Of a stretch of DNA of 64,000 nt, positions 25,662-50,195 are shown in pieces (position 1 is the first letter of the stretch; the number at the start of each line of letters is the position of its first letter). Origin of the DNA: Candidatus Thorarchaeota archaeon. GTDB taxonomy: Archaea > Asgardarchaeota > Thorarchaeia > Thorarchaeales > Thorarchaeaceae. The notes under the pieces were generated by a model, which saw only the letters and a list, made by a program, of their open reading frames with translations, ran no database searches and was not told the origin of the DNA. The stretch lies in the NCBI GenBank assembly GCA_029855935.1, contig JAGSHN010000023.1, positions 12,157 through 76,156 of the forward strand, given 5' to 3'. A program made the translations under genes and the position numbers.

Positions 25662-26258
25662 CTAGGAGTTGCGGGAAGATCTCAACAGACTCACTGACTC
25701 AAGCACCTTTCTAATCCATTGCTTCGAGTACTTTTGTTTGAGTGCTGCTACTATGTCAACAATCGTGTCAAAGTCGCGTTCGTTGAACACTCTCTTCACA
25801 AACAGCGCTGTGGCAATCACTGACAGCTGTGTTGCGGTATATGATCCAAACTCCTCGACTAGCGTATCAATCACCTTCATTTCATTTTCGGCTAGGAAAC
25901 TAGCGAGCTCGGCTTCTCTCTTAGGAGAAATGAAATACCCCTTGTCAGAGTCCCACAAGATCCTAAGCCATCCCATTGCCTGAGCCAAGTTGGTAAAACT
26001 TGTCACCTTCGGAGAGTATGGTCCGTAGTGATACAGCGAATACCCAAGGTCCGTGCCGCCCTTCGCATCAAACAAGTACATTAGTTTCTGGATTTTTGTT
26101 CTCCCTATTTGCTTGTCAGGATGTCTTGCATATAATTTCCTTACGAGATAGTAGACCAGAGCAGGACCCTTTAGCAGACTCTTCATCTCTTCACAGACCT
26201 CCAGTATCCCTTGCTCGTTCCAGATCAGACGCATTGACATAGATTCTCGTCTTTGCAT
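25662..26258 (-). CDS. Panacea-domain (DUF4065/SocA-like) protein.
   Basis: TKIQKLMYLFDAKGGTDLGYSLYHYGPYSPKV matches the Panacea core (KLQKLLY...GPYSP). The start is uncertain (M at 26258 or 26240). It overlaps the 3' end of the upstream HD gene by 50-68 nt. Confidence 0.65.
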   Translation of the reverse strand: MQRRESMSMRLIWNEQGILEVCEEMKSLLKGPALVYYLVRKLYARHPDKQIGRTKIQKLMYLFDAKGGTDLGYSLYHYGPYSPKVTSFTNLAQAMGWLRILWDSDKGYFISPKREAELASFLAENEMKVIDTLVEEFGSYTATQLSVIATALFVKRVFNERDFDTIVDIVAALKQKYSKQWIRKVLESVSLLRSSRNS

Positions 26259-27447: not shown

Positions 27448-28669
27448 CACGATATCCACACCCCAGCGCCACACTTCTTCACGTTGCGATATGTGCCCCG
27501 ATTGCAATACGGAATAAATGAGGATGAAATTCCAGACAAACAGAGAACAAGATCAGAATCACTTCTTGAGCCCTGACGTTCGCAAGATGGTCGTATTCCA
27601 ATCCAATTCCAAAACGTGAAACTCACAGGTGATGTATGGCCCTCTCTTTTGGCAGCCCGTTCGGCTACGCCAGTTCGTACGAGCACCGTATTCTTCGTGA
27701 TTGACGTCATGGTCACTGTTCGCATACTCCCCAAGATTCGTTGTCAGCCCACTTTCCCGCTCGAATGAGCAGAATACAGGGTACGAACACCATATGAATA
27801 CTTGTGCGATCCTGGCAGCCAGTTGAGGGAATCCGCAACTCTTCTATTTCAATCCACTGTCAAGAAAACGGCTGGGGCTACAATGACACGGTCCCGACCA
27901 CGAACCGCAGTCAAGCCCTCCATTGCCTGAGGGCCTAATAGTGACTCCGAAATTGATGCTGCGCACAACAAGATGACTGACCAAACAATCTCCCAGAGGG
28001 GGTATCGTTGCCTGTGGTCCGAGGAGCAAAGTTGCTATCACAACGAAAGCTCAGTGTGGCTGTAGCTGAGCTACTCAACCCGATCTACCTTACGAATCGT
28101 ATGCACACGGGCATTGCCATATCCTTCCTAGACCGAGCGTTCCGCCTAGCAGATTTCGGTAGCGGGTCGAAGTACCTCTCGGCTACTCCAAGCGTATCGG
28201 GGAGCAAACGTGCATAACCACCGGACTTCGTTCATTCCTGTTCAAGCGCAGCAATGGTGTCATCGTCAAACTCTTTGACATCATCGGAGAACCCAAGAAG
28301 GCTGCAAGCCTAGCGCTCCCAGCTTCCACAACGTGTTTCTTCCTGCTTGAGCCAACCGTTCACGTAGGCAGTTCAATTATTGACGAGAGTAAGCAACAGC
28401 ACCGCCTGCCCACAGGTCAACAGAGTTGAAAAGTAGCTGGATAGCAAAGACATCCGAGCGCTTTGATAGGCTCAGCCCACATAGGGGCTTGAGAAGAATG
28501 CCCGTATTGCCAGAAATCACCAAGCCCCTGGGAATTGGATAGACACAGACGCTCGACTGCTAGCCAAGTCACATCAACTGCAAGACAGCCAAGGAATGGG
28601 TGAAGGCGCAGGTAGAACTATGGGAGTTTTGTCACCATAGGCGAGACATCAGAAACAAACGTTGATTGT

Positions 28670-29149
28670 CTAGCCAATCAACGTGAATCCGTCAAAGATA
28701 CTGCAGCCGCAAGGTACTATCCGCAAAGGGAAACTAGGCGTTCCCAGAATCCTCTTTACCAGAGACAAGTTATTCGCAACAAAATCGCATATGTTCTGTG
28801 GGAGAACCAATATGTGACGGTAGTTGGGATTTCTCACGCCCATGCAGTCCAGCAACCCACCAAGAAATCCTTCAGTTTCCTTGAACTTGCTATCAAGACT
28901 GCGGATGGCTTCAGAAAAGGTTGATTCCTCAGCAATGTTCTTGAGTTCCACCAGGAATGCGGTGCATTTGTCATCCTCGAACATAACGTAGACTACATCG
29001 CAATGGGCCAAGTGCATTCTCCCAAGTTCCGCGTACTTCTCGAAGTTGAGAACCAGAAAGGGCAGACCGCCCTTGAGGATGATTTTGCAGTCATTCTCTT
29101 CATACTCGGCTTCCATTCTCGGCCCATTCGTCGTCCCCGGCACGTTCAT
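28670..29149 (-). CDS. Small protein with a PD-(D/E)xK-like nuclease motif, the putative partner of the upstream ATPase.
   Basis: HCDVVYVMFEDDKCTAFLVELKN contains D-hydrophobic-strand ... E-L-K. It is 159 aa, and its start overlaps the stop of the 29100-30833 ATPase. Confidence 0.4.
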   Translation of the reverse strand: MNVPGTTNGPRMEAEYEENDCKIILKGGLPFLVLNFEKYAELGRMHLAHCDVVYVMFEDDKCTAFLVELKNIAEESTFSEAIRSLDSKFKETEGFLGGLLDCMGVRNPNYRHILVLPQNICDFVANNLSLVKRILGTPSFPLRIVPCGCSIFDGFTLIG

Positions 29150-30833
29150 CGTCTCCTAAGCCTAGCGCCCACTCCAGCAGAATATCTATGACATCCGTCA
29201 GACTGGGAATGTGCTTTGTTAGCTCATCTGCGGGAACTTCTGATACTTCAACTCCTTCCTTCTCAGGCTTGTAGTAGTAGAACCGGATGTCAAGATCCCC
29301 TGCTCGCGCAGCGTATTCTGACAGAAGCTCAAGAGGACCGCCCTCAACAGGCACCCTCTGCATCTCCAGGAGCCTCTCTATCAGCTCACGGATCTTCTCG
29401 CTGCTGGGTCGGTGTATCTTTATGTATGCTAGGATAAGAACGATGAGGTCACTGTGGGTACTGAAAACCACTTGGTGCTCGTACTTGCTTGCAAGCGCCG
29501 CCAGAGTCAACCCCATCAGCAATTGAGCGGCATAGTGTAGTTGAGCCTCGGGCTCCTCTATGATGATCCTTGATCTTGGACGCGTCGAGAGAACTGGCAA
29601 CAGAATTCCCGCAACTTCTCCGGCCAGGGCCGAGGCCGAGTTCATTGGCACGGCGCACGCACCCGTGGAATAGAATAGACCCTTCGCCCTTTCGTAGGTA
29701 AGTCTGCCTTGAAGAACCGGAAGAAATAGCTCAATTGCTTCCTTGTCGTAGGAACCGTCGGCAATCTTGGATCTGCCCAGGCTCAGCCACGATATGTAGG
29801 AATGCAGAACGACATCTGACTCATACAGTGTGCTGTAGCCACGTCTGTCTCTTCGAATCGGTTCTTGCGAGAGGAGTTCTAGCTGGTTGATGACGAGGCT
29901 TCGTCCGAATGGAATGAAACGTACTTCCTCTAGACCGTATGACTCAGCATACGCAGCCCTGAGCGGTTGACATATTGACTCGTCTACGAATTCCAGAAGC
30001 ACGTCATCCAGCCACAATTGGATACGGTGGGGAAGGAAGGAACCTAGGACATAGCCAGGCCTGCTGGCCCTCTGGAGAATCTGACTGACTGTGGCCTCCG
30101 GACTCTTTGCCGACGAAGCAATCTTCTTCAGTTCGTCCAGCACGTTCTTCGAGAAGACCCTCTCAACCGCCCTACTGCTGGCCCTCATCGAGAATCTGAG
30201 CTCCAAAGCAATTGCAACTACTCCTTCGGGTTTCAGGTCAAATGAAACGTTCGCTTGACAGATCGTATTCCTCCTCAGGTCACCAAATTTCTCAGCATAA
30301 CTACGTGGCTCCGTAGAACTCTCAGCAATCAAGTCAAGGAACTCCGGCATTGATACCGAACTATCCAGTTTCGAGTCATCTCTCACCAAGACGATATCCC
30401 GATAGAAGTCTAGATTGGGCCGCAGCAAACTATCGACAGGAATGACGCCAGAGGCCTCTATGGTAAAGTTGAGAGTGCCATCTTCGGAGCGCCAGCGAAC
30501 GTTTTCCGCACCAGTCTGTTCTCTGAAAACCTCAGCGAGATTCGGTACTTGACTCTCTAAGCCTTCAAGGCCCAACGCGTACAACGCTACCAGCGCGTAC
30601 AAAGCCCTCAGCGAGTTTCGCAGATTCAGAGGCGGATAGTCCACATCATACGTACTTAGTAGGTTACGGAACTCAAACTCGCGTGCGTGCTCATCGAGCA
30701 TTAGAGTCGAAGCATACAAGGCTCTGAGGGTATACGACTTCCCCGTATTAGGCGGCCCGAACACGACAGTTATGTCGCCAATCTCTATATCCGCCGATCG
30801 TATCGGGCCCAAGTTCTCTATGTGGAATCCCAC
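29100..30833 (-). CDS. AAA_21/ABC-type (OLD/RecF-like) ATPase.
   Basis: Walker A is VFGPPNTGKSY. The C-terminal RIIIEEPEAQLHYAAQ...VVFSTHS carries the Walker B/D-loop and H-loop typical of AAA_21 ATPases of defence systems. Confidence 0.8.
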   Translation of the reverse strand: MGFHIENLGPIRSADIEIGDITVVFGPPNTGKSYTLRALYASTLMLDEHAREFEFRNLLSTYDVDYPPLNLRNSLRALYALVALYALGLEGLESQVPNLAEVFREQTGAENVRWRSEDGTLNFTIEASGVIPVDSLLRPNLDFYRDIVLVRDDSKLDSSVSMPEFLDLIAESSTEPRSYAEKFGDLRRNTICQANVSFDLKPEGVVAIALELRFSMRASSRAVERVFSKNVLDELKKIASSAKSPEATVSQILQRASRPGYVLGSFLPHRIQLWLDDVLLEFVDESICQPLRAAYAESYGLEEVRFIPFGRSLVINQLELLSQEPIRRDRRGYSTLYESDVVLHSYISWLSLGRSKIADGSYDKEAIELFLPVLQGRLTYERAKGLFYSTGACAVPMNSASALAGEVAGILLPVLSTRPRSRIIIEEPEAQLHYAAQLLMGLTLAALASKYEHQVVFSTHSDLIVLILAYIKIHRPSSEKIRELIERLLEMQRVPVEGGPLELLSEYAARAGDLDIRFYYYKPEKEGVEVSEVPADELTKHIPSLTDVIDILLEWALGLGDDERAGDDEWAENGSRV

Positions 30834-32858: not shown

Positions 32859-34778
32859 GTGAAACTCAAATCAGTCCACGTGAAGCACTTTCGATGCATC
32901 CGGGACCAGACCCTGAATTGCGAGGACCTCACAATACTCGTTGGTCCGAACGGCTCTGGAAAGTCTTCCTTTCTCAGGGCCCTCGACCTGTTCTATTCCA
33001 CTTCGCCAAGTTATGCACAGGATGACTTCTACGGCCGAGACACGGACACACCCATAACGATCACGGTCACATTCTCGGAGCTGGACGATGACGAGCTAGA
33101 GCTATACAAGAGATACGTGCACAACAACGAGCTATCCATAACTCGAAAACTGGAATGGCCTCCCAGGAGAGGCTCGGCGAAATACCACGGGCTTCACAAA
33201 TGCAATCCCGACTTTGATGGATTTCGTAGGGCAAGTGGGTCGGATCTGCGCCGCGAGTACAATGCGCTACGTCAGGGCAAATATAGAGAACTCCCTCCGT
33301 ACTCCAACAAGGATGCTGCTGAAGGAGCGCTCAAGGATTGGGAGGATAGGAATCCGGACAGATGTGAGATTAGGGAGGACGATGGCCAGTTCTTCGGATA
33401 TACCGCAGTAGGCAAGTGGGTCCTGGAGAAAGGAACACGATTCTTTCTTGTGCCGGCCGTGAGGGACGCAGCCCTTGACGCTAGAGAAGGCAAAGGAAGT
33501 CCGTTCTCGGAGATAATGGACATAGTCGTGAGAAGTACTCTGAAAGATGCCCCCAGCTGGCAAGATCTTCAGAATCTCGTAAGAGAAGAGTATCGCAAGG
33601 TAATTGGTCCCATCCGGGAGGAGAAGCTGGAACAGATAAAATCCGAACTGATGGAGATTCTGCAGACATACGTGCCAAGCGGGAGCGTAGAGATAGACTG
33701 GGACGTTGAAACAGATCCGGAGATTCCAGCACCAAGAGCTACCGTAAGGCTTGCAGAAGACGAGTTCTATTCTCCTGCGGAGCTTTGCGGTCACGGCCTA
33801 CAGAGGGCACTGACCCTGGCGATGCTCCAGCTCCTTGCCAGAATTCGTACTCGGCTCGGATCAGACGAAACGCCGAACGAACCAACCTTCATCATCGCAA
33901 TTGAAGAGCCTGAGGCATATCAGCATCCCAACAGGCAGCGCCATCTGGCAAGAGTCCTCGTCGATCTTGCAGAAAATGGGCTTCCTGGTGCTGCTGAGAG
34001 AATCCAGATTATCTGTACAACACACTCGCCTCTATTCGTAGATATGGCAAACTGCCACAGAGTTCGCAAGCTGAGAAAGATCAAGACACAGACCAACGCA
34101 CCTCCCGAAACAGTGGTTGTTTCGACCAATCTTGACACTCTGGCCCGTGAGTTAGAGCAGATTGACGGCAAGGCTCAGGGAACGTATAGTGAGAAATCAG
34201 TATTGTCGCGGCTGAGAGCAGTGATGACCCCTCAATTGAACGAGGGATTCTTTGCTGATGTAGTGGTCCTCGTGGAGGGAGAAACTGATCGGGCGGCTAT
34301 CCTTGCAGTGGCAAGGATGCTGGGTCACGATCTTGAGGCATTGGGCATATCTGTGCTCCCGTGCTCAGGGAAAGGGAGCCTAGTCGGTCCTGCCGTTGTC
34401 TTCAGGAGTCTCGACATACCAATATACCTTGTCTGGGATGCCGACACGCAGTCCGGGGGCTCCGGACAGGACGATCCTCACAACAGAAAGCTCTTCCGCC
34501 TGATGACTGGCACAGCCAATGGCTCCCCGGGCACAATTGCTTCGACGTATGCCTGTCTGCAAACCAACCTTGAGGAAACCATTAGGACGGAGATTGGTGG
34601 TGACGTATTCGATCCCATAGTGGAGCGGTGGCGCAAGGAGCACGGAATGAAGAGAAACGCCGCAGTCAAGCGAGCTGCTGCAATTGAGGAGATTCTCAAT
34701 CAGGCCGCACAACAGGGAAGAAGATGCCAGACAATCGAGGAGATTGTCACACAGATAGTCAAGCTTGTTGAACAATAG
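32859..34778 (+). CDS. OLD-family ATP-dependent endonuclease (AAA_21 ATPase + Toprim).
   Basis: GTG start. Walker A is VGPNGSGKSSFLRALD. IIAIEEPEAYQHP is the Walker B/D-loop, followed by TTHSP. The C-terminal Toprim is DVVVLVEGETDRAAILAVAR ... YLVWDADTQSGG (E + DxD). Confidence 0.85.
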   Translation: MKLKSVHVKHFRCIRDQTLNCEDLTILVGPNGSGKSSFLRALDLFYSTSPSYAQDDFYGRDTDTPITITVTFSELDDDELELYKRYVHNNELSITRKLEWPPRRGSAKYHGLHKCNPDFDGFRRASGSDLRREYNALRQGKYRELPPYSNKDAAEGALKDWEDRNPDRCEIREDDGQFFGYTAVGKWVLEKGTRFFLVPAVRDAALDAREGKGSPFSEIMDIVVRSTLKDAPSWQDLQNLVREEYRKVIGPIREEKLEQIKSELMEILQTYVPSGSVEIDWDVETDPEIPAPRATVRLAEDEFYSPAELCGHGLQRALTLAMLQLLARIRTRLGSDETPNEPTFIIAIEEPEAYQHPNRQRHLARVLVDLAENGLPGAAERIQIICTTHSPLFVDMANCHRVRKLRKIKTQTNAPPETVVVSTNLDTLARELEQIDGKAQGTYSEKSVLSRLRAVMTPQLNEGFFADVVVLVEGETDRAAILAVARMLGHDLEALGISVLPCSGKGSLVGPAVVFRSLDIPIYLVWDADTQSGGSGQDDPHNRKLFRLMTGTANGSPGTIASTYACLQTNLEETIRTEIGGDVFDPIVERWRKEHGMKRNAAVKRAAAIEEILNQAAQQGRRCQTIEEIVTQIVKLVEQ

Positions 34779-34976: not shown

Positions 34977-36065
34977 ATGCCCCTTGGGCACACAATCGTT
35001 GAGGGGTCATCTCTGAGGGTACTCCACACGTCGGATCTCCATCTCAGTGCGGGCAACCCGCGCACACTCGAAGCCCTCGAACACATTCTAGATGTGGCAA
35101 GGCAAGAGAACGCAGATATCGTCACCATTGCTGGTGATATGTTTGACTCTGCCAGAGATGCAAACGAACTGCGGCCACAGCTAAGAGATCTGCTATCCGA
35201 AAACGGCTTTGAGATCCTTGTCCTCCCCGGGAACCACGACGCCACGGCCTTTACCCAGAATACATTCTACGGCAATGATGTGTTCCCGCTGATCGATAAG
35301 CCTGTTACTGTCAGAGAATATGAAGACCTCCTCATCGCGGGCGTGCCATTCCGCGAGAGGCTGGACGATGATGTAGCACTCCGAATTCGAGAAGTTTCGG
35401 ACTTCACAGGCACGAAGATCCTCTTGCTGCACTGCACCCTCGATATCGGCCTCGGGAGCGGTGGCTTCGGCGAAGAAGAGGCGATTCGCTACATGCCTGT
35501 GTCTTCAGCCAAGCTGGCCGGGCTCGGTTTCGACTACATCCTGGCTGGCCATTTTCACTCTTCGCTGCACGAACAGAAGCTTGCAAGCGGAGGACTGTTC
35601 GTCTACCCGGGGTCACCAGTCTCTCTGACAAGGAAGGAGCGAGGGCGGCGATCCGCCTATCTCATTGACACTGAGAGCAAGAAGACGCAGGCCATAGAGC
35701 TCTCTACGTTCTACTGTGATGAGCTCGAGGTCACAATCTCGCCGGGTACAGAGAAGGCGTGGGTCGAACAAATCGAACAATGGGCCAAGCATCACAAAGG
35801 AAAGAACTGTGACGTCAGGGTCATCGCGAAGGGGTTCACCGAGATGCCAGAGGCTGAGCTGAAACAACAGATTGAGGCTGCAGCCGGGGGAATTCACGTT
35901 GACTTTCGCGTCCGTGGCATTGAGAACATCCTCCGATACCCCATATATCAGAGATTCAAGCAGCGACTTCTTAATGATGATGGGATCGACGACAAGGAGA
36001 GGGTAGATATGATGATGCTCACGGTCGTGTCTCGACTGGCGGAAGAGGGGGAGCTTGACCTATGA
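34977..36065 (+). CDS. Calcineurin-like metallophosphoesterase, SbcD/Mre11-like nuclease.
   Basis: The phosphoesterase motifs are present in order: LHTSDLHL, AGDMFD, GNHD, LLLHCTL, GHFH. 362 aa. Confidence 0.85.
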   Translation: MPLGHTIVEGSSLRVLHTSDLHLSAGNPRTLEALEHILDVARQENADIVTIAGDMFDSARDANELRPQLRDLLSENGFEILVLPGNHDATAFTQNTFYGNDVFPLIDKPVTVREYEDLLIAGVPFRERLDDDVALRIREVSDFTGTKILLLHCTLDIGLGSGGFGEEEAIRYMPVSSAKLAGLGFDYILAGHFHSSLHEQKLASGGLFVYPGSPVSLTRKERGRRSAYLIDTESKKTQAIELSTFYCDELEVTISPGTEKAWVEQIEQWAKHHKGKNCDVRVIAKGFTEMPEAELKQQIEAAAGGIHVDFRVRGIENILRYPIYQRFKQRLLNDDGIDDKERVDMMMLTVVSRLAEEGELDL

Positions 36066-38065
36066 GGTTGAAAGAGCTCAACATCATCCGATATGGACCC
36101 GTGAGGGACCGCAGGCTCACGTTTGAGGAGAGCGTCAATCTCATCTACGGCCCGAACGAGTCCGGCAAGACACTCTCAATAGATGCCCTGATCAAGCTCC
36201 TCCTTGGACGGGAGAGAATCCAGAGATGGGACATCGACCGTGTCGAGTCAAAGCCCAACGGGTACGCAATCATAGAGATTGGGGGCGAAGAAATAGAGCT
36301 CACCGGCTCCAAGTCATTGATTGACGTAATCGAGATGGATGACACCGAACTTGCAGTAGACGACCTGAGAAACGTGTTCATCATTCGAGACTCGGACCTT
36401 CGAACTCACGATTCCCCCAGGTATTTCGAAACGCTTGTGGATCGGGTATCGGGAGCACGACTTGCGGAGATCGAGAAGATAATAGAAGAACTCGAGAGAG
36501 AGGGACGCATAACACCGAAAGGTCAACTCACGGATCGTCAAGACACGGGAAAGCTCGCAACTCGTGTCCGAGATGCCCGCAAACTGTTGAACGCGATTGA
36601 GGAGTTTTTCCAAAGACCGGAAACGCATGAATATGAGGAATTGGAATGGGAGTTTGTCAGGAAAAAGACCCGACTAGAAATCTTGAAACAACACTGGGAG
36701 CGACTTGAGCAAGCCAAAGAGCTGTACGAAGCTGTTGAGATTCGAAACAGTATCAGTGTCATTGAGGGACTCTTGAAGGAACGACAGCGATACGACAGGA
36801 GCCAAATCAGCAATCTAAGGACAAAGGCAGAACAGGCTAGGGCTGAGTGTGAGTTCATTGAGGCGAGCAAAGAAAAGATTGAATTCTTGTCCAGAACGGT
36901 ACTCGTCTTTGCATTTCTGTCGATGATTGCCCTGGTTCTGGCAGTGCTTGTGAATCCGTTGGCTCTAGCAGGTCTAGTTGTGTTCGCAGTCCTGACAACG
37001 CTTCACGTGGGAAGAATTCTGTCAATCAAGGACGACGAAGCCAAGTTTAGGTCCAAGGCTCACACTCTTCTGATGGAGGCTAGGGCTGTTGGTATCAAAT
37101 GCGATGACGTGGATGCACTATGCGAGAAACTCCGAAGCGTCTTGGACCGCGCGGACGAGGTCCATAACAAACTGATAGGACATTGGTCGGTCTTGGCAGA
37201 CAAGTTCAACTTGCCAATGGATGCAAACCCCGAGGACCATCTCCCTTCGATAAGAAACGATATCGAAATGAGACTCATGGCACACAAAGGTATTGATGCT
37301 GACAACTTCGATTCAGAAGAGTACGAGAGAGTTAGGCAAGAAATGCGCGAACTCGGCGAAGAGATTGAGGGATATGAGAAGAAACTTGAGTACTACCGGG
37401 ATAAGCTTCAGGAATTTGAGCGCACAACGAACCATGTACTAAGAGCTGATTTTTCCGGCAGTGATGGGGGCTTGGAAATAGGCTCTCTTGAAGCACTGAG
37501 GGCAGCTCGGTCGAAACTAGAAGAGTTCATAGATCGGGTCGAGACCCGTGCCGATACCGCTAGAGAGGCAATCAAGATACTCAAGGAGGTGCGCAATGAA
37601 GAGAGAAGCTCAATAGGCAATCTCTTCAAACCCGATGGACCTGCAACCCGCACCTTCGCAAGAATCACGAAGGGGGCGTATTCGGAGGTGCTGGTGAACA
37701 GGGACGGGTCAGCAATCCACGTCCGTCGGGCCGGAGGAGAGCTCATTCCCCTTGAGAAGCTGAGCAGGGGAGCAACCGACCAGCTCTATCTGTCAGTACG
37801 GATTACGCTTGCGAAAGAGATTCTGGGAGAAGAGCCGGGGTTCTTCGTCATGGATGATCCCTTCTTGGCCTCAGATATGGGTAGGCTACGTGAGCAGGTA
37901 AGCATATTGAAGGAGCTGGCCCAAGAGGGATGGCAGATCATCTACTTCACCTCCAAGGAGGAAGTGGTGACCGCGTTCAGGGAGATGGTGGGCGTTAAAG
38001 CGAAGTCATTGAATACGCTTCAGGGCCTGATACCGCCAGAGGAAGTTTCCCAAGCGGAGCCGTGA
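36062..38065 (+). CDS. SbcC/Rad50/SMC-like ATPase with a central hydrophobic hairpin.
   Basis: The start overlaps the upstream stop by 4 nt (ATGA). Walker A is YGPNESGKT. A long charged coiled-coil follows. The C-terminal LSRGATDQLYLSVRITLA is signature-motif-like, and FFVMDDPF is Walker B. Residues around 275-320 (LVFAFLSMIALVLAVLVNPLALAGLVVFAVLTTLHV) form two predicted TM helices where a Rad50 zinc hook would normally sit. Confidence 0.8.
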   Translation: MRLKELNIIRYGPVRDRRLTFEESVNLIYGPNESGKTLSIDALIKLLLGRERIQRWDIDRVESKPNGYAIIEIGGEEIELTGSKSLIDVIEMDDTELAVDDLRNVFIIRDSDLRTHDSPRYFETLVDRVSGARLAEIEKIIEELEREGRITPKGQLTDRQDTGKLATRVRDARKLLNAIEEFFQRPETHEYEELEWEFVRKKTRLEILKQHWERLEQAKELYEAVEIRNSISVIEGLLKERQRYDRSQISNLRTKAEQARAECEFIEASKEKIEFLSRTVLVFAFLSMIALVLAVLVNPLALAGLVVFAVLTTLHVGRILSIKDDEAKFRSKAHTLLMEARAVGIKCDDVDALCEKLRSVLDRADEVHNKLIGHWSVLADKFNLPMDANPEDHLPSIRNDIEMRLMAHKGIDADNFDSEEYERVRQEMRELGEEIEGYEKKLEYYRDKLQEFERTTNHVLRADFSGSDGGLEIGSLEALRAARSKLEEFIDRVETRADTAREAIKILKEVRNEERSSIGNLFKPDGPATRTFARITKGAYSEVLVNRDGSAIHVRRAGGELIPLEKLSRGATDQLYLSVRITLAKEILGEEPGFFVMDDPFLASDMGRLREQVSILKELAQEGWQIIYFTSKEEVVTAFREMVGVKAKSLNTLQGLIPPEEVSQAEP

Positions 38066-38249: not shown

Positions 38250-39008
38250 CTACTCGTATATCTCCGAGATACTCGCAATCTCTCTCATCAGAAGCGTGAT
38301 CTCGTCTAATAGCTCTTCACCCTCGTCGGGGTCCTGGGTCCGTATGAGCTTGTCCTCATACATCCGGATAAGTCGCACCAGCTTCCTGTATCGCGGTAGA
38401 GGGAACTGTTCGGGGATCTCACCGAAGATGTAGCCCCGTTGTGGGGACAGATGTTCCTCGGCCGCTATATTTGCAATTTGAGTGATGGGAACCCAGATCT
38501 CCGCCAGAGTCCCGTCGTCATCTTCACTCGCCTTAAAGTAGGCCCCAATCTCGACGTCGTACTCGCCAAGGGTGCCTCGCAGTATGCTATCTGCGCGGAC
38601 GTATCTCCATCCTCTTGCCCGTTTCTTCTTTCGGAGGGCAACAACTATCTCAACCTCACCGTCCTCACGGTTTTCGCGAATGTACTCGCGGTCATCCTCA
38701 CTGAGGCGGCAGGTCGGCGGTATTCCCCCAAAGTCGGTGTGAGAATGAAACTCGCCGACTATGAAGTCCCAAGACAGAAACGCCAAGACCTCCTCAATAC
38801 GGGCATATCTGCGGAAATTCGGCTCCACTGATGTGTATCGTCGCTCGGAGGACTGGAGAGCCACAACTGAGTTGACCACAACTTTGCCCGCCGAACCGAA
38901 GATGTCGCCCATCAATACACCTGTACATTCGCGCTTGTAGACCTCAATCGCATACCCGAGCATCTGTGCAAAGGCAGGTGCCCGGACGAAGACTGTTTCA
39001 ATCTCCAA
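38250..39008 (-). CDS. JAB/MPN (JAMM) domain metalloprotease-like protein with a C-terminal extension.
   Basis: EVYKRECTGVLMG followed by GEFHSHTDFGGIPPTCRLSEDD matches the E...HxH...S..D JAMM pattern with slightly longer spacing. 252 aa. Confidence 0.55.
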   Translation of the reverse strand: MEIETVFVRAPAFAQMLGYAIEVYKRECTGVLMGDIFGSAGKVVVNSVVALQSSERRYTSVEPNFRRYARIEEVLAFLSWDFIVGEFHSHTDFGGIPPTCRLSEDDREYIRENREDGEVEIVVALRKKKRARGWRYVRADSILRGTLGEYDVEIGAYFKASEDDDGTLAEIWVPITQIANIAAEEHLSPQRGYIFGEIPEQFPLPRYRKLVRLIRMYEDKLIRTQDPDEGEELLDEITLLMREIASISEIYE

Positions 39009-39531: not shown

Positions 39532-40059
39532 TCACAAGAATTTTCTCACGAAGTACCTGAAAGATTCACTTCTACGTTGTGCAAGCGAGGGGTCGAATCT
39601 CTCGATGATTCTATTCATAAATACCGAACGCGGTATCGACTGCGGTATTATGATATTGAACCACTGTTTTGTGACACGTGGCGGAATCGCGAGCCTCCTG
39701 ACACCAGCAATCTGCCGAAGAATTTCTCTCTCAATTCCCGCGACATACCACGCCTCTATCTCGGGTATGACAACTACTATGCGCTGCTCGTCCCCAATCC
39801 CATATCGTCCGGCTATTTGGTTTCTCAGTGCCGTCACACAGGGATAGCGATCCAGATCCCGAACAAGGACATACTCAGTACTCTTCCGTTCCAAGGTATG
39901 AATGAATTTCCGAATTTTCCTTTTCTCCATCTGAGCGTACTTGACGATTTGAACACGATCATAGTGTTTCTCAAGACGTGAACAAAGGATTCTCCTGAAG
40001 AAGCGTTCGTCGTCATCCCCTTCGACGAAGACATAGAAAGACGACATTTCTTTCGACAC
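39532..40059 (-). CDS. Small Toprim-like (DUF4276/RloB-like) protein, partner of the upstream AAA_21 ATPase.
   Basis: The N-terminus FYVFVEGDDDERFFRRIL resembles the hhhVEGxTE start of DUF4276/RloB-type Toprim proteins. Its start is 2 nt after the ATPase stop. 175 aa. Confidence 0.5.
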   Translation of the reverse strand: MSKEMSSFYVFVEGDDDERFFRRILCSRLEKHYDRVQIVKYAQMEKRKIRKFIHTLERKSTEYVLVRDLDRYPCVTALRNQIAGRYGIGDEQRIVVVIPEIEAWYVAGIEREILRQIAGVRRLAIPPRVTKQWFNIIIPQSIPRSVFMNRIIERFDPSLAQRRSESFRYFVRKFL

Positions 40060-40061
40060 CG

Positions 40062-41360
40062 CTACTGCAGAATGCCCTGCACGAATAGGTCATCCACACC
40101 GAGATCGTTCTCCAGAAACGCCATTACCTCCTCGTCATTTCTTGGACGCGTGACCTGCGAATATCCATCCTCGTCCCGCGTAACAAGGAGAAGGTTATCA
40201 ATACCAGCGTGCTTGACCACTTCGGGGTTGTGCGTTGTAATTATCACCTGTTTGTTCATTCGGCTCGAGACCTCTTTCATCATATTCACAATCTTCGAGA
40301 TGAGTAGAGGGTGAATGTTTCGCTCGGGCTCCTCTATGATAACGAGAGGGTTCTTTTCGAAATACAATGCGATTACCAACGTTGTGACATTCACCGTACC
40401 ATCTGAGATCAGAAAGGCTGGCAGGAACCGTTTCTGTGAATAGATCTCTCTGATGCTGGCGAGAAGCGATTTGTCCGGAAGTCTCTCTACCGTGAAGTCC
40501 TCTACGAGTGGCAGGACATCCTTCACTAATGACGAGATCAGGTCCCGGTCTCGCTTATTATCCAAGATGCGCTTCAGAATCAGGGGCAGATTGCTACCGT
40601 CTGGCTCAAGCTCGGTCTTGCCAGTGACGGGAGTTGCACGTTTCATAAGTCGCGGATCAAAATCGTAGATAGAGATGTTACGCAGATAGTGTGCCAAGCT
40701 CGAATAGAACGGTGAAAGAAGGACTGGATCTTCAATGGAGAGTCTTCGTGGGCGCGGACGGGCAGCATATCTCATATCTCGCGCTAGAGACAGGTAGAAG
40801 AAGCGTTCTATGCGTGTGTCCGAGAGGGAATCAGACATTTCCATCGTCACTCTGCGACCATCATTGATAGTAGTGATAGTGCCTTTGCGAACTTCTCCAC
40901 GGAGCGCATCACCACCGTTCGGCCGGCGAGTCCCGTATTCACACACTGCCGTGAGTTTGTCCGACACTCCCGAGTAGTCCAGTTTGCGTTTGTAGAACCT
41001 GATTGAGAGTTCGTAATCGTACCGACTGACGGAGAGATAGGCATCTCGAGATATCCGCAAGATGTCTCTTGCTTCGAGTGAGAGTTGGATGGACAGGTCA
41101 CGCAAAGAACCTATGGCAAGATTGCGTAAGTAGGCCACTCCACCTTGCATCGAAATAGCGTTCTCCAACCCCATCGTGGTGATATCCTTGAGGAACCGGA
41201 ACAGGGCGATAAGATTGGATTTTCCTGAGGCGTTCGGTCCGACTATCACGTTGAAGTCGCCCAACTCAATCTCCGTTTCATTGAAGGTCCTGAAATTGCT
41301 CACCCTTATTCTTCGGATCCTCGTTGTGTCCTTCGGTCGCATAGGTTGGGAACCTCCCAA
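40062..41360 (-). CDS. AAA_21/ABC-type ATPase.
   Basis: Walker A is VGPNASGKSNLIALF. The C-terminus LVIIEEPERNIHPLLISKIV...VIITTHNPEVV carries Walker B, Q/H-loop features. Confidence 0.8.
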   Translation of the reverse strand: MGGSQPMRPKDTTRIRRIRVSNFRTFNETEIELGDFNVIVGPNASGKSNLIALFRFLKDITTMGLENAISMQGGVAYLRNLAIGSLRDLSIQLSLEARDILRISRDAYLSVSRYDYELSIRFYKRKLDYSGVSDKLTAVCEYGTRRPNGGDALRGEVRKGTITTINDGRRVTMEMSDSLSDTRIERFFYLSLARDMRYAARPRPRRLSIEDPVLLSPFYSSLAHYLRNISIYDFDPRLMKRATPVTGKTELEPDGSNLPLILKRILDNKRDRDLISSLVKDVLPLVEDFTVERLPDKSLLASIREIYSQKRFLPAFLISDGTVNVTTLVIALYFEKNPLVIIEEPERNIHPLLISKIVNMMKEVSSRMNKQVIITTHNPEVVKHAGIDNLLLVTRDEDGYSQVTRPRNDEEVMAFLENDLGVDDLFVQGILQ

Positions 41361-41811: not shown

Positions 41812-42825
41812 TTGAAGTATACAGCCGAAGACGAGGAGAGGAATCGCACCTACTATGTCGCGTTGAACAAATCGCGCAATGATCTATTCCACCCGTACAA
41901 CAACAAGGGCGGAGGCACACTGGAGTGGGACAACGATTTCAGGGACAGGGTTCGCGAGGCCAAGGCCTTGCGGAGGACCAATGGATTGATTGAAGAGTTG
42001 GATTCGCCACCCAAGGCCCGGAAGTCGCTACCCACAAGGTCATTGAGGGTGATATACCGTCGGGACCCTGTCTTGGAGTCGATCGCGAGCAGATTCCTGC
42101 CCCGAGTCATCGATGCCACTCATATCTACGGTCTTCTGTTGTGTCCGCGCCGACACCAGTACGGTACACTGATGGGCGCAGCCGGGATGAAGTGCGACGA
42201 GGTTGAACGCAGCGAGTTCTCGCCGGCCTTCGGCTCTGTCCTACACAGTATGATCGCAGAGTTTGACTATGCCACGGGCTCCACTGAGAGCGCTCTCACC
42301 GTGCTCCATCAGGCTGAGTTCCTCACCGGCCCCGACAAGAAGAGGCTCCAGAATGCGATCACCTCGTACTCGGAGTTCACAGAAGAGATAGGTCTGAGGT
42401 CATCAGAGGGAGATCGAGTGTTGTCAGAGAGGGAGATCTACGGAACCATAGATGTGGACGGGCAAGTCATCGAGCTCCGCGGGGTCATCGACATAGCAGT
42501 TGTCCGATCCGACGGTAAGATCGACGTCTACGACGTCAAGACCAACTATCTGCCCCCTAGTGGCACTTCTGAAGAGAGGCTCAAGCGTGAGTTCCTGCGG
42601 AAACACCACGAACGTCAGCTCCTGACATACAAGTCAATGCTCGAACAACAGGGACACACTGTTGAAGGTGTCTACGTTGTGGCTGTATCAAAGAAGAGTG
42701 CAACCCAAGTCAAGTGGAACCTAGTTCAAGTTGACGATGCAGACTGGTCATTGCAAGAACTTTGTGAGATGCTGCCGATAACGGTCGAAGAAGAGGGACT
42801 CAGAAAGACTGAGAACAAGTACTGA
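41812..42825 (+). CDS. RecB-family PD-(D/E)xK nuclease-like protein.
   Basis: GVIDIAVVRSDGKIDVYDVKTNY contains D...D-x-K. The downstream QLLTYKSML resembles the RecB-family QxxxY motif. The N-terminal 200 aa are unassigned. Confidence 0.5.
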   Translation: MKYTAEDEERNRTYYVALNKSRNDLFHPYNNKGGGTLEWDNDFRDRVREAKALRRTNGLIEELDSPPKARKSLPTRSLRVIYRRDPVLESIASRFLPRVIDATHIYGLLLCPRRHQYGTLMGAAGMKCDEVERSEFSPAFGSVLHSMIAEFDYATGSTESALTVLHQAEFLTGPDKKRLQNAITSYSEFTEEIGLRSSEGDRVLSEREIYGTIDVDGQVIELRGVIDIAVVRSDGKIDVYDVKTNYLPPSGTSEERLKREFLRKHHERQLLTYKSMLEQQGHTVEGVYVVAVSKKSATQVKWNLVQVDDADWSLQELCEMLPITVEEEGLRKTENKY

Positions 42826-45911: not shown

Positions 45912-47690
45912 ATGAGCGAGTCACTAAACTCACGTTTCCTGCGCATCCAGCACATCCTAGAACGGGTTCACGAAGGCGACTACGTCCTTCCGGAGTTCCA
46001 GAGGAGCTTCGTATGGTCGAACTCCGACATCAAGGATCTTCTCGTTTCATGTCTGAACGGGTATTTCATTGGGACGTTCCTCCTTCTTAGGGGTGATGCG
46101 GCAAAGAGCTTTAAGACACGGTATTTCGAGGGAGTTCCCGAGGCCAATCCGCAAATCCCACGAGAGCCAGATGACAGGACTGTCGATCGAATTGTCTTGG
46201 ACGGGCAACAAAGGATAACTGCGGCATACTATGCCCTCTATGCGCCACCTGGTATCACACCCAAAGGGGCGTCATATCCCAGACGCTATCTCCTGAGGAT
46301 TGAGAACTGTCACGTCGGCGACATCGACTGGGAGGATCTCATAGAAGACTGGTCCGAGAACGAGAGCAGTCGAAAAGTCCCTCACTCGTCAGGTGCAGCT
46401 AGACTTAGAGAACTCATTCAGAAACATGATTTTGTCAACCTTCTGAACGATTCAGAGTTCCGCAAATACCTCTTCGAGAATCATCTTCTGCCGTTCGCGG
46501 TTCTGAAATCAGACTCAGATTTCTCAAGGTGGTTGGACGATTACGCGGACTACCTTGAGGAGAAGGGCATAGAAAAGGCTCAGGTGAGAGAACGGAAACA
46601 AGCCCTCCGAGAAAGACTGAAAAACGTGCTGAATTTCCAAGTTGCGGTTCTAGAGTTGGAGGAGAGGGACCTCGTCAAAGTCGTCGACCTCTTTGAGCGA
46701 ATCAACCGAACAGGTGTTGCTCTCTCTGTGTTTGCACTAGCTACCGCAGTCTACATGAAGGGAGGAGTAAACCTCCGCAGACTGTGGAGGGAGTTCTATG
46801 CAGCATCTCCTACAATTCAGCAGTTCTGTCAAGAGGATGATGAAACATATCCCAAATACGTTCTCCAAGTGATGGCTCTTCTCCAAGGCAAGGAGGTCAA
46901 GAAGAAAGTCCTGATTGACTCCAGACAGTTGAGTGTTACATCTGACCGATGGTCACAAGCCACGGAACTGCTCGAAAAGGCGCTCGACCGTGCAACAAGC
47001 ACGAGAAACGGTTATGGAGCAATCAAGTCAAATCTCCTACCTTATCGGTCGGCAATTGTCACTCTCGCTGCTCTTCTGGCCAAGTGCGGAACTGCTAGTG
47101 ACTTTGACAAGCTGGACGCTTGGTACTGGAGTTCCGTCTTCACAGCAAGGTATGCTGGGGCCAGCGAAACAGCGATCAAGCAAGACTATGACCAAGTATG
47201 TCGATGGCTGAAGGATGGTACCCAAGAACCAAGTGTTGTCACTGAAGCGGCGAATCGTGTTTCGAGTCACAAGCTCGAGAACATCAGAACTGGCGGTACC
47301 TACAAAGCCATACTTTGCCTCATCTCATTGGCTGGTGCAAAGGACTTCCTAACCGGACAGAGTCCCGAGCTAGGCTTGCTCAATGACCATCATATCTTTC
47401 CGAAATCATTGTATCGAGATAGACGCTCAGTTGATTCAATACTCAACCGGACACTCATTACCGACACGACAAATAGAGATATCTCGAATAAACGCCCGTC
47501 CGAGTATGTTCGGGAGATCATAAAGGCTCTTGGCGGGGAGGAGGACGATGCGAGAGATATGCTGAAGAGTCATCTGATAGACGATGAATGTTTCGAGGCA
47601 ATGAAACAAGATGACTATTCGCGCTTTATGGCCCGCCGGGCTGAGCTGATTCGTAGTGAGATGATTCGTCGAATCCGGTACGGGTCTTGA
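45912..47690 (+). CDS. GmrSD-family type IV (modification-dependent) restriction endonuclease, DUF262 + DUF1524.
   Basis: The N-terminal DUF262/ParB-like motifs are YVLPEFQRSFVW and DGQQRITA. The C-terminal DUF1524 His-Me finger is LNDHHIFPKS...NRTLITDTTNRDISNK. Confidence 0.85.
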   Translation: MSESLNSRFLRIQHILERVHEGDYVLPEFQRSFVWSNSDIKDLLVSCLNGYFIGTFLLLRGDAAKSFKTRYFEGVPEANPQIPREPDDRTVDRIVLDGQQRITAAYYALYAPPGITPKGASYPRRYLLRIENCHVGDIDWEDLIEDWSENESSRKVPHSSGAARLRELIQKHDFVNLLNDSEFRKYLFENHLLPFAVLKSDSDFSRWLDDYADYLEEKGIEKAQVRERKQALRERLKNVLNFQVAVLELEERDLVKVVDLFERINRTGVALSVFALATAVYMKGGVNLRRLWREFYAASPTIQQFCQEDDETYPKYVLQVMALLQGKEVKKKVLIDSRQLSVTSDRWSQATELLEKALDRATSTRNGYGAIKSNLLPYRSAIVTLAALLAKCGTASDFDKLDAWYWSSVFTARYAGASETAIKQDYDQVCRWLKDGTQEPSVVTEAANRVSSHKLENIRTGGTYKAILCLISLAGAKDFLTGQSPELGLLNDHHIFPKSLYRDRRSVDSILNRTLITDTTNRDISNKRPSEYVREIIKALGGEEDDARDMLKSHLIDDECFEAMKQDDYSRFMARRAELIRSEMIRRIRYGS

Positions 47691-49506: not shown

Positions 49507-50195
49507 CTCGACGAATGGACTTGTCAGGTCAGTCCTCCAATTCCGGAGCGATTCTCGAGCTTCAATCGTGAGGCGAAACGCCTGCGCGGCGAGTACTAGT
49601 CCAGCCAGGGAATTTATGCATTACTTGATTCAATTCATCCCTCGGGTCAAGTCTCTGGAATCTCGAGTCTCCAGTCGACGGGACACTGAATGGTGTGAGA
49701 TCTGGCCGGCTTGAGAGGGACGATGAGGAACTTGAGAGAGCACAGGGGCTCTGTTCAAGACTTGGCCACTGGGTCAAGAAGCTCGAGCAGGACCACTCAC
49801 AAGACATCGCCCCTTCTCCCGTTTCGAGACACCTCAGTACCTTGCCACAGCGAGCCTTCAACAAGAAACAAAAGAACAGGAGACAAATCAACAACTCGGA
49901 TAGGTACGGGCTCAATACGAGAGTGCGTGAGTACCAGCGTCATCATTGAAGGGTGTAGCGGCTATTGCGGGAAAGTGAAACGGGGGTCCTGATGGACAAG
50001 CATGGCCCTCGGGCCGATGCCAGCGGATCAGAAGGACACGATGCTAGGCGACAGCTCCTCCGTTCCTCCGGACACAGCCAGGTGCCACGACGACGCTCCC
50101 CAACCGTGAAGAGCGCCGTGGGATGGGAGCCAGAGGAATACTCCGATTCTTCCGCACCTGGGGCGCGTCAAATTGCCACCCGGTCCCCTATACTC

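What the first reader, a model, noticed from the sequence alone, without database searches (positions are those of the whole stretch)
36880..37025. SbcC/Rad50-like ATPase carries a predicted transmembrane hairpin at the apex of its coiled coil instead of a zinc hook
The SMC-like protein has N-terminal Walker A and C-terminal signature/Walker B motifs, separated by a charged coiled-coil. In the middle there is no CxxC hook. Instead there are about 45 uninterrupted hydrophobic residues (LVFAFLSMIALVLAVLVNPLALAGLVVFAVLTTLHV, with a Pro-containing turn). These would form a two-helix membrane hairpin. That would tether a Rad50-like DNA-end ATPase, and its Mre11-like partner, to the membrane. This is unusual and fits surveillance of DNA entering the cell. 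Some Bacillus YhaN (SbcE)-like proteins are annotated similarly, so this may be the archaeal counterpart of a poorly characterised family.
Basis: seen in the sequence. Interest (0 to 1): 0.7.

Follow-up and report, generated by a model that had tools for sequence, protein, structure and literature searches.

The report
Membrane-anchored Rad50-like ATPase with Mre11-like partner
A Rad50/SbcC-like DNA-end ATPase in a probable Asgard archaeon has two predicted membrane-spanning helices at the tip of its coiled coil where Rad50 has a zinc hook; this is a conserved trait of the little-studied YhaN/SbcE family, so the gene is a new archaeal member of a known kind.

Summary
ORF 36062-38065 (+, 667 aa) has Walker A, ABC signature and Walker B motifs and no CxxC. 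Residues 279-317 are 39 consecutive uncharged, very hydrophobic residues in a protein that is 34% charged. AlphaFold2 puts a helix-turn-helix at N298-P299, in the middle of the block. The block is a family trait: 149 of the 150 nearest 50%-identity cluster representatives have it at the same relative position. In 304 relatives the two arm lengths co-vary (r=0.96), which places the block at the apex of an antiparallel coiled coil.

An Mre11/SbcD-like nuclease gene (34977-36065) overlaps the ATPase start by 4 nt. The same nuclease lies directly upstream in all 66 genome loci with room to see it.

The clade aligns over its full length with AAA_27 proteins named YhaN (hhalign E 3e-50). Paenibacillus YhaN proteins carry the same central block. 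The 2010 SbcE paper described a hydrophobic, insoluble, proline-containing central domain but did not call it a membrane span.

I conclude it is a short-armed archaeal/bacterial clade of the YhaN/SbcE-YhaO/SbcF family. Membrane insertion and the biological role (repair, DNA uptake or defence) are inferred, not shown. The gene lies in a defence island here, but family-wide neighbours are mostly housekeeping.

The parts
34977..36065 (+). Mre11/SbcD-like metallophosphoesterase (362 aa), equivalent to YhaO/SbcF; its stop overlaps the ATPase start (ATGA)
   Evidence: Pfam Metallophos 3.6e-16. NCBIfam SbcD/Mre11 hits are below cutoffs. Catalytic residues D20, H22, G53-D54, G85-N86-H87-D88, H152 and G191-H192-x-H194 are invariant in 51 orthologs. 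The ortholog profile hits E. coli SbcD at 1.5e-17 and T. maritima Mre11 over its full length. An ortholog lies directly upstream in 66/66 genome loci with room.
36062..38065 (+). YhaN/SbcE-type SMC-like ABC ATPase (667 aa)
   Evidence: Pfam AAA_27 9.6e-12, AAA_23, AAA_15. PDB Rad50 head 8e-14. AF2 mean pLDDT 82. hhalign to AAA_27/YhaN proteins E 3e-50.
36149..36172 (+). Walker A, GPNESGKT (aa 30-37)
   Evidence: G30, N32, E33, G35, K36 and T37 are 91-100% conserved in 153 family sequences.
36554..36895 (+). Ascending (N-terminal) coiled-coil arm, aa 165-278
   Evidence: AF2 helices 165-184, 186-243 and 246-296. The segment is 42% charged. Heptad periodicity is significant only around aa 156-193.
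36896..36952 (+). Predicted transmembrane helix 1, aa 279-297 (TVLVFAFLSMIALVLAVLV)
   Evidence: KD 2.94; Hessa sum -3.95. Family charged fraction in the block is about 0-5% per column. Small-residue stripe at 283/290/294.
36953..36958 (+). Hairpin turn N298-P299
   Evidence: AF2 places non-helical residues at 297-300, between helices 246-296 and 301-342. Pro occupies this column in 48% of the family, and the preceding column is polar or charged. The SbcE paper notes a conserved Pro in the central domain (PMC2811018).
36959..37012 (+). Predicted transmembrane helix 2, aa 300-317 (LALAGLVVFAVLTTLHVG)
   Evidence: KD up to 2.6. Hessa 17-residue sum -0.14 and 15-residue sum -1.89.
37013..37624 (+). 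Descending (C-terminal) arm, aa 318-521. It starts with a K/R-rich juxtamembrane stretch and includes a conserved helical region (L378, and a Trp column at position 397 where the window has Ile)
   Evidence: AF2 helices 301-342, 350-381, 390-407, 418-459 and 476-521. Strong 3.5-residue periodicity at about 339-392, 411-466 and 470-533. Conservation.
37760..37783 (+). ABC signature motif LSRGATDQ (aa 567-574)
   Evidence: Aligns with LSGGERIA of P. furiosus Rad50. L567, S568, G570, D573 and Q574 are 94-100% conserved.
37841..37876 (+). Walker B (FFVMDD) and D-loop (ASD), aa 594-605. The second acidic residue is Asp, not Glu
   Evidence: Aligns with LLILDEPTPYLD of Rad50. D598, D599 and D605 are 97-99% conserved.
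37943..37963 (+). H-loop-equivalent segment YFTSKEE (aa 628-634), with Lys where Rad50 has His
   Evidence: Aligns with ILVSHDEE of Rad50. K632 is 98% conserved in the clade. Paenibacillus YhaN proteins keep FTCHxH.

Best explanation
Genes 34977-36065 and 36062-38065 encode a two-subunit Mre11/Rad50-type DNA-end nuclease complex of the YhaO/YhaN (SbcF/SbcE) family. The ATPase folds like Rad50: its N- and C-terminal halves form one ABC head, and two long helices form an antiparallel coiled coil. Where Rad50/SbcC has a CxxC zinc hook at the apex, this family has two ~19-residue hydrophobic helices joined by a 2-4 residue Asn/Arg-Pro turn.

Inferred, not shown: the two helices insert as an N-in/C-in transmembrane hairpin with the K/R-rich flanks in the cytoplasm. 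That would hold the ATPase-nuclease heads roughly 15-20 nm below the membrane. The hairpins of two protomers would pack in the bilayer through a conserved small-residue stripe, doing the dimerising and ring-closing job of the hook.

More speculative: the complex processes DNA ends that arise or arrive close to the membrane, such as incoming foreign or transforming DNA or membrane-proximal breaks. In this genome that role may be defence, given the island context.
For: Shown directly:
- Rad50-like head motifs, and homology to Rad50.
- No CxxC.
- A 39-residue uncharged block, beyond all 2000 shuffles. Its hydrophobicity is TM-grade while the rest of the protein is strongly unfavourable. It has no 3.5-residue amphipathic periodicity, unlike the arms.
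- AF2 places a helix-turn-helix at 296-301 (pLDDT 67-80 there, mean 82).
- In 153 relatives the block is 1.9% charged versus 35% elsewhere. Residue identity is lower in the block (0.30 vs 0.46), so hydrophobicity is conserved rather than sequence, as expected for lipid-facing helices. Pro sits at the turn in 48% and both flanks are K/R-rich.
- 149/150 nearest cluster representatives have the block at relative position 0.44-0.48, and 127 have two separable windows.
- The Walker A-to-block and block-to-signature distances co-vary (r=0.96, slope 0.87) over 234-724 residues in 304 relatives. Paired insertions occur on both sides of the block in the 770-aa subgroup.
- The nuclease partner has all Mre11 catalytic motifs invariant, matches T. 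maritima Mre11 over its full length, and lies directly upstream in 66/66 loci.
- Family link: AAA_27 is the top Pfam hit; hhalign to YhaN-named proteins gives E 3e-50 with blocks aligned; 117/120 Paenibacillus YhaN-type proteins have the block, and the one locus examined (P0224) has an upstream Metallophos gene.

From the literature: B. subtilis SbcE has a hydrophobic, Pro-containing central domain and no CxxC. It is insoluble in E. coli, interacts with SbcF, contributes to DSB repair and transformation, and gathers at the pole of competent cells in a ComK-dependent way (PMC2811018). SNIPE shows that membrane localisation of a nuclease can target injected phage DNA (PMC13190303).
Against: - No dedicated TM predictor (TMHMM/DeepTMHMM) was available, and the Hessa values came from memory.
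- TM2 is only marginally favourable as a 19-residue window (+1.5).
- I could not inspect AF2 coordinates, so arm pairing and hairpin geometry rest on secondary structure and length covariation.
- SbcE-YFP in B. subtilis forms mobile foci on nucleoids and moves between poles. That is not obviously what a fixed integral membrane protein would do, although the membrane-anchored complex could diffuse laterally.
- I found no experiment showing membrane association for any family member.
- About 30% of the wider AAA_27 family, mostly proteins over 1100 aa, lacks the block, so the anchor is dispensable for some relatives.
- Walker B is DD and the H-loop His is Lys in this clade, so ATPase kinetics may differ from Rad50.
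- A defence role is weakly supported: immediate neighbours in 71 loci are mostly housekeeping, and no plasmid or genuine phage copies were found.
Confidence: 0.7

Rival explanations
1. The hydrophobic block is not in a membrane. It forms a buried protein-protein core, for example a four-helix bundle that dimerises or oligomerises the coiled-coil tips in the cytoplasm, as a purely hook-like element.
For: The hook of Rad50 is a dimerisation element at the same position. Conserved small residues at 283/290/294 indicate helix-helix packing. SbcE-YFP foci are mobile and seen on nucleoids. TM2 is marginal on the Hessa scale.
Against: The block has 39 residues without a single charge, and the family-wide charged fraction is 1.9%. 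It shows no amphipathic periodicity, and its sequence is less conserved than the rest of the protein, whereas an interface core is normally more conserved. Each helix is about 19 residues, the length of a bilayer span. K/R residues cluster on both flanks. SbcE and its central domain are completely insoluble when expressed in E. coli.
Confidence: 0.1
2. The block anchors the protein to the membrane as a monotopic re-entrant wedge, like proline-knot hairpins, that dips into the cytoplasmic leaflet without crossing the bilayer.
For: The turn is only 2-4 residues and contains Pro. TM2 is less hydrophobic than TM1. There is no extracellular domain to suggest any need to cross.
Against: Each helix is about 19 residues, enough to span the bilayer. 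In 38% of family members the residue before the Pro is charged, often Arg. That is unfavourable in the bilayer core and suits a turn reaching the outer interface.
Confidence: 0.15
3. In this genome and its close relatives the pair is a dedicated anti-virus/anti-plasmid defence system, not a housekeeping repair complex. It degrades linear foreign DNA as the DNA enters.
For: The pair sits in a 19-48 kb low-GC island with OLD, HEC-01, GmrSD, HD, Panacea, JAB and Cas4-like genes. Its two closest relatives lie next to a pAgo gene. The clade is distributed patchily across distant phyla, and one copy is on a haloarchaeal plasmid. SNIPE is a precedent. SMC-like Lamassu and Wadjet are defence systems (Foldseek similarity).
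Against: The pair matches no PADLOC system beyond weak N-terminal P-loop hits. Among 112 immediate neighbours in 71 loci only about 10 are defence-like; the rest are metabolic or housekeeping genes. Bacterial relatives lie next to DNA glycosylase genes or core genes. The only studied member acts in repair and transformation. No copies were found in PLSDB plasmids.
Confidence: 0.3
4. The segment is an artefact: a frameshift, a chimeric assembly, or a fusion of two genes across a spurious hydrophobic linker.
For: The source is a metagenome-assembled genome. The closest relative, L007, has a scaffold gap at this very spot.
Against: The identical protein is found on independent contigs from NCBI and a Logan SRA assembly. 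The block is present in 149/150 cluster representatives and in cultured haloarchaea and Paenibacillus genomes. The ORF is continuous, and the head halves need each other to form an ABC ATPase.
Confidence: 0.01

Closest known systems
SbcE/SbcF (YhaN/YhaO) of Bacillus subtilis; Pfam AAA_27 'YhaN AAA domain', COG4717
   Same: - Nuclease gene immediately upstream of the SMC-like ATPase gene.
- AAA_27-type N-terminus, no CxxC, and a central hydrophobic domain with a conserved Pro between two heptad-repeat arms.
- Walker B is DD.
- Full-length profile homology to YhaN-named proteins, with the hydrophobic blocks aligned.
   Different: - The protein is much shorter (667 aa versus 963 aa as I recall for B. 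subtilis and 1065-1123 aa in Paenibacillus), so each arm is roughly half as long.
- The H-loop His is replaced by Lys in this clade.
- There is no conserved yhaM-like third gene.
- The host is archaeal and the gene lies in a defence island.
- I could not retrieve the B. subtilis protein itself for direct comparison.
Rad50-Mre11 / SbcC-SbcD
   Same: ABC ATPase head with Walker A, signature, Walker B and D-loop; an antiparallel coiled coil; and a partner phosphoesterase with all Mre11 motifs and full-length similarity to T. maritima Mre11.
   Different: - No zinc hook; a hydrophobic two-helix block sits at the apex instead.
- Walker B is DD rather than DE, and Lys replaces the H-loop His.
- Scores are far below the NCBIfam Rad50 cutoffs (42.8 vs 1087 bits).
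- The arms are short.
SNIPE membrane-bound anti-phage nuclease (PMC13190303)
   Same: This is a functional analogy only. A nuclease held constitutively at the cytoplasmic membrane can use location to act on DNA entering the cell.
   Different: No homology is claimed or tested. SNIPE is a single protein with a different architecture, it is not an ABC/SMC-like ATPase complex, and its membrane localisation and activity are experimentally shown.
SMC-like defence complexes (Lamassu LmuB, Wadjet JetC)
   Same: SMC-like ABC ATPases with coiled coils that sense DNA ends or topology and control a nuclease. They appear as structural neighbours in Foldseek, with weak PADLOC LmuB hits.
   Different: Those complexes are soluble, have different partner proteins (LmuA/LmuC, JetABD), and lack both an Mre11-like subunit and a TM hairpin. 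The PADLOC hits here cover only the N-terminal P-loop region.

Membership tests
YhaN/SbcE family (Pfam AAA_27, COG4717) | N-terminal AAA_27 domain above Pfam gathering score | tested here: met
   AAA_27 scores 45.4 bits against a cutoff of 22 and is the best Pfam hit, but it covers only model positions 1-52 of 206.
YhaN/SbcE family (Pfam AAA_27, COG4717) | Full-length homology to proteins annotated as YhaN | tested here: met
   hhalign of the window clade (A1) against 17 AAA_27 proteins, several named YhaN by JGI: probability 100%, E 3.3e-50, 685 aligned columns. BLASTP to a Paenibacillus 'YhaN' gives 37% identity over the C-terminal head (3e-11) and 24% over the N-terminus (1e-5).
YhaN/SbcE family (Pfam AAA_27, COG4717) | Central hydrophobic domain with conserved Pro in place of a CxxC hook (as described for SbcE) | tested here: met
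   Block at aa 279-317 with N298-P299; no CxxC. Pro is present in 48% of the clade. Described for SbcE in PMC2811018.
YhaN/SbcE family (Pfam AAA_27, COG4717) | SbcD/Mre11-like phosphoesterase gene (YhaO/SbcF) immediately upstream in the same operon | tested here: met
   Window gene 34977-36065 overlaps the ATPase start by 4 nt. Same arrangement in 66/66 genome loci and in Paenibacillus.
YhaN/SbcE family (Pfam AAA_27, COG4717) | Direct sequence comparison with B. subtilis SbcE itself | not tested
   The B. subtilis sequence was not returned by either homolog search, and the paper's supplement is not held.
YhaN/SbcE family (Pfam AAA_27, COG4717) | Function in DSB repair or transformation; physical complex with the nuclease | not testable with these tools
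   Known only from B. subtilis genetics, microscopy and yeast two-hybrid.
Canonical Rad50/SbcC | CxxC zinc hook at the coiled-coil apex | tested here: not met
   No CxxC in the protein. Only 3 of 150 relatives have any CxxC.
Canonical Rad50/SbcC | Rad50 equivalog model score | tested here: not met
   Best NCBIfam Rad50 models score 35-43 bits against cutoffs of 700-1087.
Canonical Rad50/SbcC | ABC head motifs: Walker A, signature, Walker B D-E, D-loop, H-loop His | tested here: inconclusive
   Walker A, signature and D-loop are present. Walker B is D-D, and the H-loop His aligns with Lys.
Canonical Rad50/SbcC | Mre11/SbcD partner with intact phosphoesterase motifs | tested here: met
Lamassu (LmuB) and other PADLOC ABC-ATPase defence families (GajA, AriA, PtuA, MAD3) | Full-length match to the system's ATPase model, plus its cognate partner genes | tested here: not met
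   PADLOC hits are weak (best 5e-11 mad3, 2e-10 LmuB). Most cover only the N-terminal P-loop region, and the mad3 hit spans the query but is weak. The partner is an Mre11-like phosphoesterase, not LmuA, GajB or AriB.

The most novel reading that the evidence does not exclude
The two membrane-inserted hairpins of a dimer close the Rad50-like ring against the bilayer. The only DNA that can enter the clamp is then DNA that emerges through the membrane between the anchors, such as viral injection, conjugation or uptake. Chromosomal DNA is excluded by topology. That would be a location- and topology-based way of telling foreign DNA from self, using an Mre11-Rad50 machine, and it would be conserved from Asgard archaea to Firmicutes.
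Probability: 0.12. Interest if true: 0.85.

Novelty: new member of a known kind. Interest (0 to 1): 0.5.

Why it matters
Rad50/SbcC complexes are textbook soluble DNA-end sensors, and their zinc hook is considered integral to how they work. A large family (845 50%-identity clusters at E<=1e-30) in both Archaea and Bacteria swaps the hook for what looks like a membrane hairpin. This implies a class of Mre11-Rad50-type machines that work at the membrane.

The family has one experimental paper, from 2010, which did not recognise a membrane anchor. The anchor would explain why that protein was insoluble, and may help explain its gathering at the DNA-uptake pole.

The short archaeal/haloarchaeal members could be tractable for localisation, topology and cryo-EM work. 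Such work could address two questions: what the hook actually does, and whether membrane position is used to single out incoming DNA.

Tried and rejected
- Foldseek against afdb50 was not available.
- I could not obtain B. subtilis YhaN. A profile search and a Paenibacillus-seeded search returned only other YhaN-named proteins, and the paper's supplement is not held.
- Literature searches for membrane-anchored SMC-like or Rad50 proteins and for COG4717/PF13514/SbcF returned nothing relevant or only noise.
- I looked for a conserved third gene by all-against-all clustering of neighbours in 71 loci and found none.
- I looked for a family-wide defence-island association. Neighbours are heterogeneous and mostly housekeeping.
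- The pAgo linkage holds only for the two closest relatives plus one other locus, and there is no Piwi gene in the window.
- tblastn against plasmids found nothing. Against phages it found only two unannotated Listeria 'phage' fragments with a weak C-terminal head match.
- There are no tRNA or Rfam features in the window.
- A single global heptad-periodicity test on the long N arm was not significant, and sliding windows gave only partial support there.
- I first thought the arms were asymmetric, based on AF2 helix boundaries. I rejected this after measuring motif-to-block distances of 241 and 249 residues.
Full report
**Observation**

The window encodes a 667-aa ORF at 36062-38065 (+). The longest run free of D/E/K/R is 39 residues (aa 279-317, nt 36896-37012), although 34% of the protein is charged. 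In 2000 shuffles the longest such run averaged 14 and never exceeded 33.

Kyte-Doolittle 19-residue means peak at 2.94. On the Hessa 2005 biological scale, whose values I recalled from memory, TM1 (279-297) sums to -3.95 kcal/mol and a 17-residue TM2 window (300-316) to -0.14. The best 19-residue window anywhere else is +12.8. The protein has three cysteines and no CxxC. The run is 39 residues rather than about 45.

**What the protein is**

Pfam's best hit is AAA_27, the YhaN AAA domain (9.6e-12), followed by AAA_23 and AAA_15. NCBIfam gives only sub-threshold Rad50 hits. PADLOC gives weak hits to many ABC-ATPase defence models, mostly confined to the N-terminal P-loop region.

A profile of 12 close homologues hits the Pyrococcus furiosus Rad50 head at 8e-14. 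In that alignment:
- LSRGATDQ aligns with the Rad50 signature LSGGE.
- FFVMDD aligns with Walker B LLILDE.
- ASD aligns with the D-loop.
- K632 aligns with the H-loop His.

AlphaFold2 on the 12-sequence alignment gave mean pLDDT 82. It predicts a long helix 246-296, a break at 297-300 (N298-P299), and a helix 301-342. The model therefore turns exactly in the middle of the hydrophobic block. Foldseek against the PDB ranks Rad50, Smc, JetC and LmuB chains first.

**The partner**

Gene 34977-36065 (+) ends inside the ATPase start codon (ATGA) and is a calcineurin-like phosphoesterase. In 51 orthologs the Mre11 motifs are invariant: DxH, GD, GNHD, H and GHxH. The profile hits E. coli SbcD at 1.5e-17 and matches Thermotoga Mre11 over its full length.

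**Is the block a family trait at the coiled-coil apex?**

A profile search of 1.84 billion cluster representatives found 845 proteins at E<=1e-30. Of the best 150, 149 have at least one window with KD>=1.6 and 127 have two, always at relative position 0.44-0.48. Only three have any CxxC.

In a 153-sequence alignment the block is 1.9% charged versus 35% elsewhere. Mean hydropathy is +1.96 versus -0.60. Residue identity is lower in the block (0.30 vs 0.46). Pro occupies the turn in 48% of sequences, a polar or Arg residue precedes it, and both flanks are rich in K/R. Small residues recur at positions 283, 290 and 294. The block shows no 3.5-residue periodicity, whereas several arm segments do.

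The ~770-aa subgroup carries matching insertions on both sides of the block. Across 304 family members the Walker A-to-block and block-to-signature distances co-vary with r=0.96 and slope 0.87 over 234-724 residues. In the window protein these distances are 241 and 249. Together these results place the block at the tip of an antiparallel coiled coil, where Rad50 has its hook. Relatedness among sequences inflates the correlation, but it holds across several length classes.

**Distribution and context**

The window matches NCBI assembly GCA_027031745.1, contig JALVPO010000016.1. The nearest genome hit is a Promethearchaeota MAG with the neighbouring accession prefix JALVPN. Its ATPase is 58% identical and its nuclease 86% identical. 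The source is therefore probably an Asgard archaeon, though I could not verify this.

The genome scan found 431 loci. They occur in Bathyarchaeia, Hadarchaeota, Thorarchaeota, Halobacteriales and Nanohaloarchaea, and in many bacterial phyla. One copy is on a Halorientalis plasmid. The nuclease ortholog lies directly upstream in all 66 loci with room to see it. No third gene is conserved.

Immediate neighbours are mostly metabolic or housekeeping genes, and about 10 of 112 are defence-like. Two bacterial loci lie next to DNA glycosylase genes or core genes.

In the window itself the pair sits in a lower-GC stretch containing:
- AAA_14/DUF4143, HD, Panacea and AAA_15/21 genes
- an OLD nuclease
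- JAB
- a HEC-01 pair
- a Cas4-like nuclease
- GmrSD

Its two closest relatives lie beside a ~700-aa pAgo. No copies were found in PLSDB, and there were no convincing phage copies.

**Relation to the known family**

hhalign of the window clade against 17 AAA_27 proteins, several named YhaN, gave probability 100%, E 3.3e-50 and 685 aligned columns, with the hydrophobic blocks aligned to each other. Paenibacillus proteins named YhaN have the central block in 117 of 120 cases. They share the DD Walker B but keep an H-loop His, and the one Paenibacillus locus examined has an upstream Metallophos gene overlapping by 4 nt. In the wider AAA_27 set 82 of 118 have the block. Most of those lacking it are longer than 1100 aa.

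The only experimental paper I found (PMC2811018) reports the following for B. subtilis SbcE/YhaN:
- It lacks CxxC.
- It has a unique central domain with a conserved proline and a hydrophobic first half.
- It is completely insoluble in E. coli.
- It interacts with the upstream nuclease YhaO/SbcF.
- It contributes to DSB repair and transformation.
- It accumulates at the competence pole in a ComK-dependent way.

That paper does not interpret the domain as a membrane span. I found no later work that does.

**Mechanism**

Shown by sequence and comparison:
- an Mre11/Rad50-type two-gene module
- no hook
- a conserved pair of ~19-residue uncharged helices at the coiled-coil apex

Inferred:
- The helices insert as an in-in transmembrane hairpin. 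A frequent Arg at the turn argues for a full span rather than a re-entrant wedge.
- The hairpin tethers the heads some 15-20 nm under the membrane.
- It may also dimerise in the bilayer, taking over the hook's role.

More speculative: the complex acts on DNA ends near the membrane. The SbcE pole localisation and the SNIPE precedent (PMC13190303) make action on incoming DNA plausible. The local defence-island and pAgo contexts fit a defence role in this lineage, but the family-wide neighbourhood does not demand one.

**Verdict**

The feature is a conserved property of a known, poorly characterised family rather than a one-off. I rate it a new (archaeal, short-armed, H-loop-Lys) member of a known kind and of moderate interest. 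The membrane anchoring of an Mre11-Rad50-type machine is under-appreciated and directly testable.

Noticed in passing
window 37841-37963 (aa 594-634): Non-canonical ATPase motifs are conserved across the clade. Walker B is hhhhDD instead of DE (98-99%). The Rad50 H-loop His aligns with Lys632 (98%). Paenibacillus YhaN proteins share DD but keep the His. The effect on ATP hydrolysis is unknown.
   Followed up: partly
L007 1259-3352 (-) and L003 583-2688 (-): The two closest relatives of the window pair lie next to a divergently oriented ~700-aa pAgo (Piwi; PADLOC pAgo 1e-188). The two pAgos are 59.5% identical. The window has no Piwi gene; an OLD nuclease occupies that position instead.
   Followed up: partly
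window ~19300-47700: Lower-GC stretch (0.47-0.54 vs 0.55-0.58 in the left flank; the right flank is mixed) packed with defence-type genes: AAA_14/DUF4143 (19333-20661), Panacea antitoxin-like (25662-26258), HD+HD_assoc (26191-27507), AAA_15/21 ATPase (29100-30833), OLD nuclease (32859-34778), JAB (38250-39008), PD-(D/E)XK/Cas4-like (41812-42825) and GmrSD_N (45912-47690).
   Followed up: partly
window 39532-41360 (-): Two-gene HEC-01-type candidate defence module. It comprises an AAA_21/AAA_15 ATPase (PADLOC HEC-01A 4e-50, also MAD3-like) followed by a small TOPRIM/DUF4276-like protein (HEC-01B 3e-8).
   Followed up: no
window 32859-34778 (+): A full-length OLD-family nuclease (AAA_15 plus OLD-like TOPRIM; PADLOC Old 1e-54) lies 198 nt upstream of the nuclease gene on the same strand. 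I did not test whether it is co-transcribed or functionally linked with the pair. It is not conserved next to the pair in other loci.
   Followed up: partly
window 37013-37312 (aa ~318-417): The membrane-proximal part of the descending arm contains a conserved helical region broken by loops in the AF2 model (343-349, 382-389, 408-417). L378 is near-invariant (99%), and one column (position 397) is Trp in 89% of the family where the window has Ile. It may be a juxtamembrane domain of unknown role.
   Followed up: no
window 36908-36943 (aa 283-294): TM1 carries a family-conserved stripe of small residues: Ser in 44% at position 283, Ser in 54% at 290, and Gly in 67% at 294. This suggests tight helix-helix packing within the hairpin or between protomers.
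   Followed up: no
L007 6031-6040: The closest genome relative has a 10-N scaffold gap exactly at the hairpin turn. This splits the ORF in two in that low-coverage MAG and is an assembly feature, not biology.
   Followed up: yes
phage records OR848501.1 and OR846780.1 (hits H1, H2): Two short, unannotated 'Listeria phage' records contain a weak match (26% identity) to the C-terminal head. They are possibly host YhaN-like DNA rather than phage genes.
   Followed up: no
window 6551-9187, 49965-52439, 52503-54809: Large predicted surface proteins with beta-propeller/FG-GAP and bacterial TSP3 repeats flank the island. An S8 subtilase (54990-56528) and an M23 peptidase (48223-49506) lie nearby.
   Followed up: no
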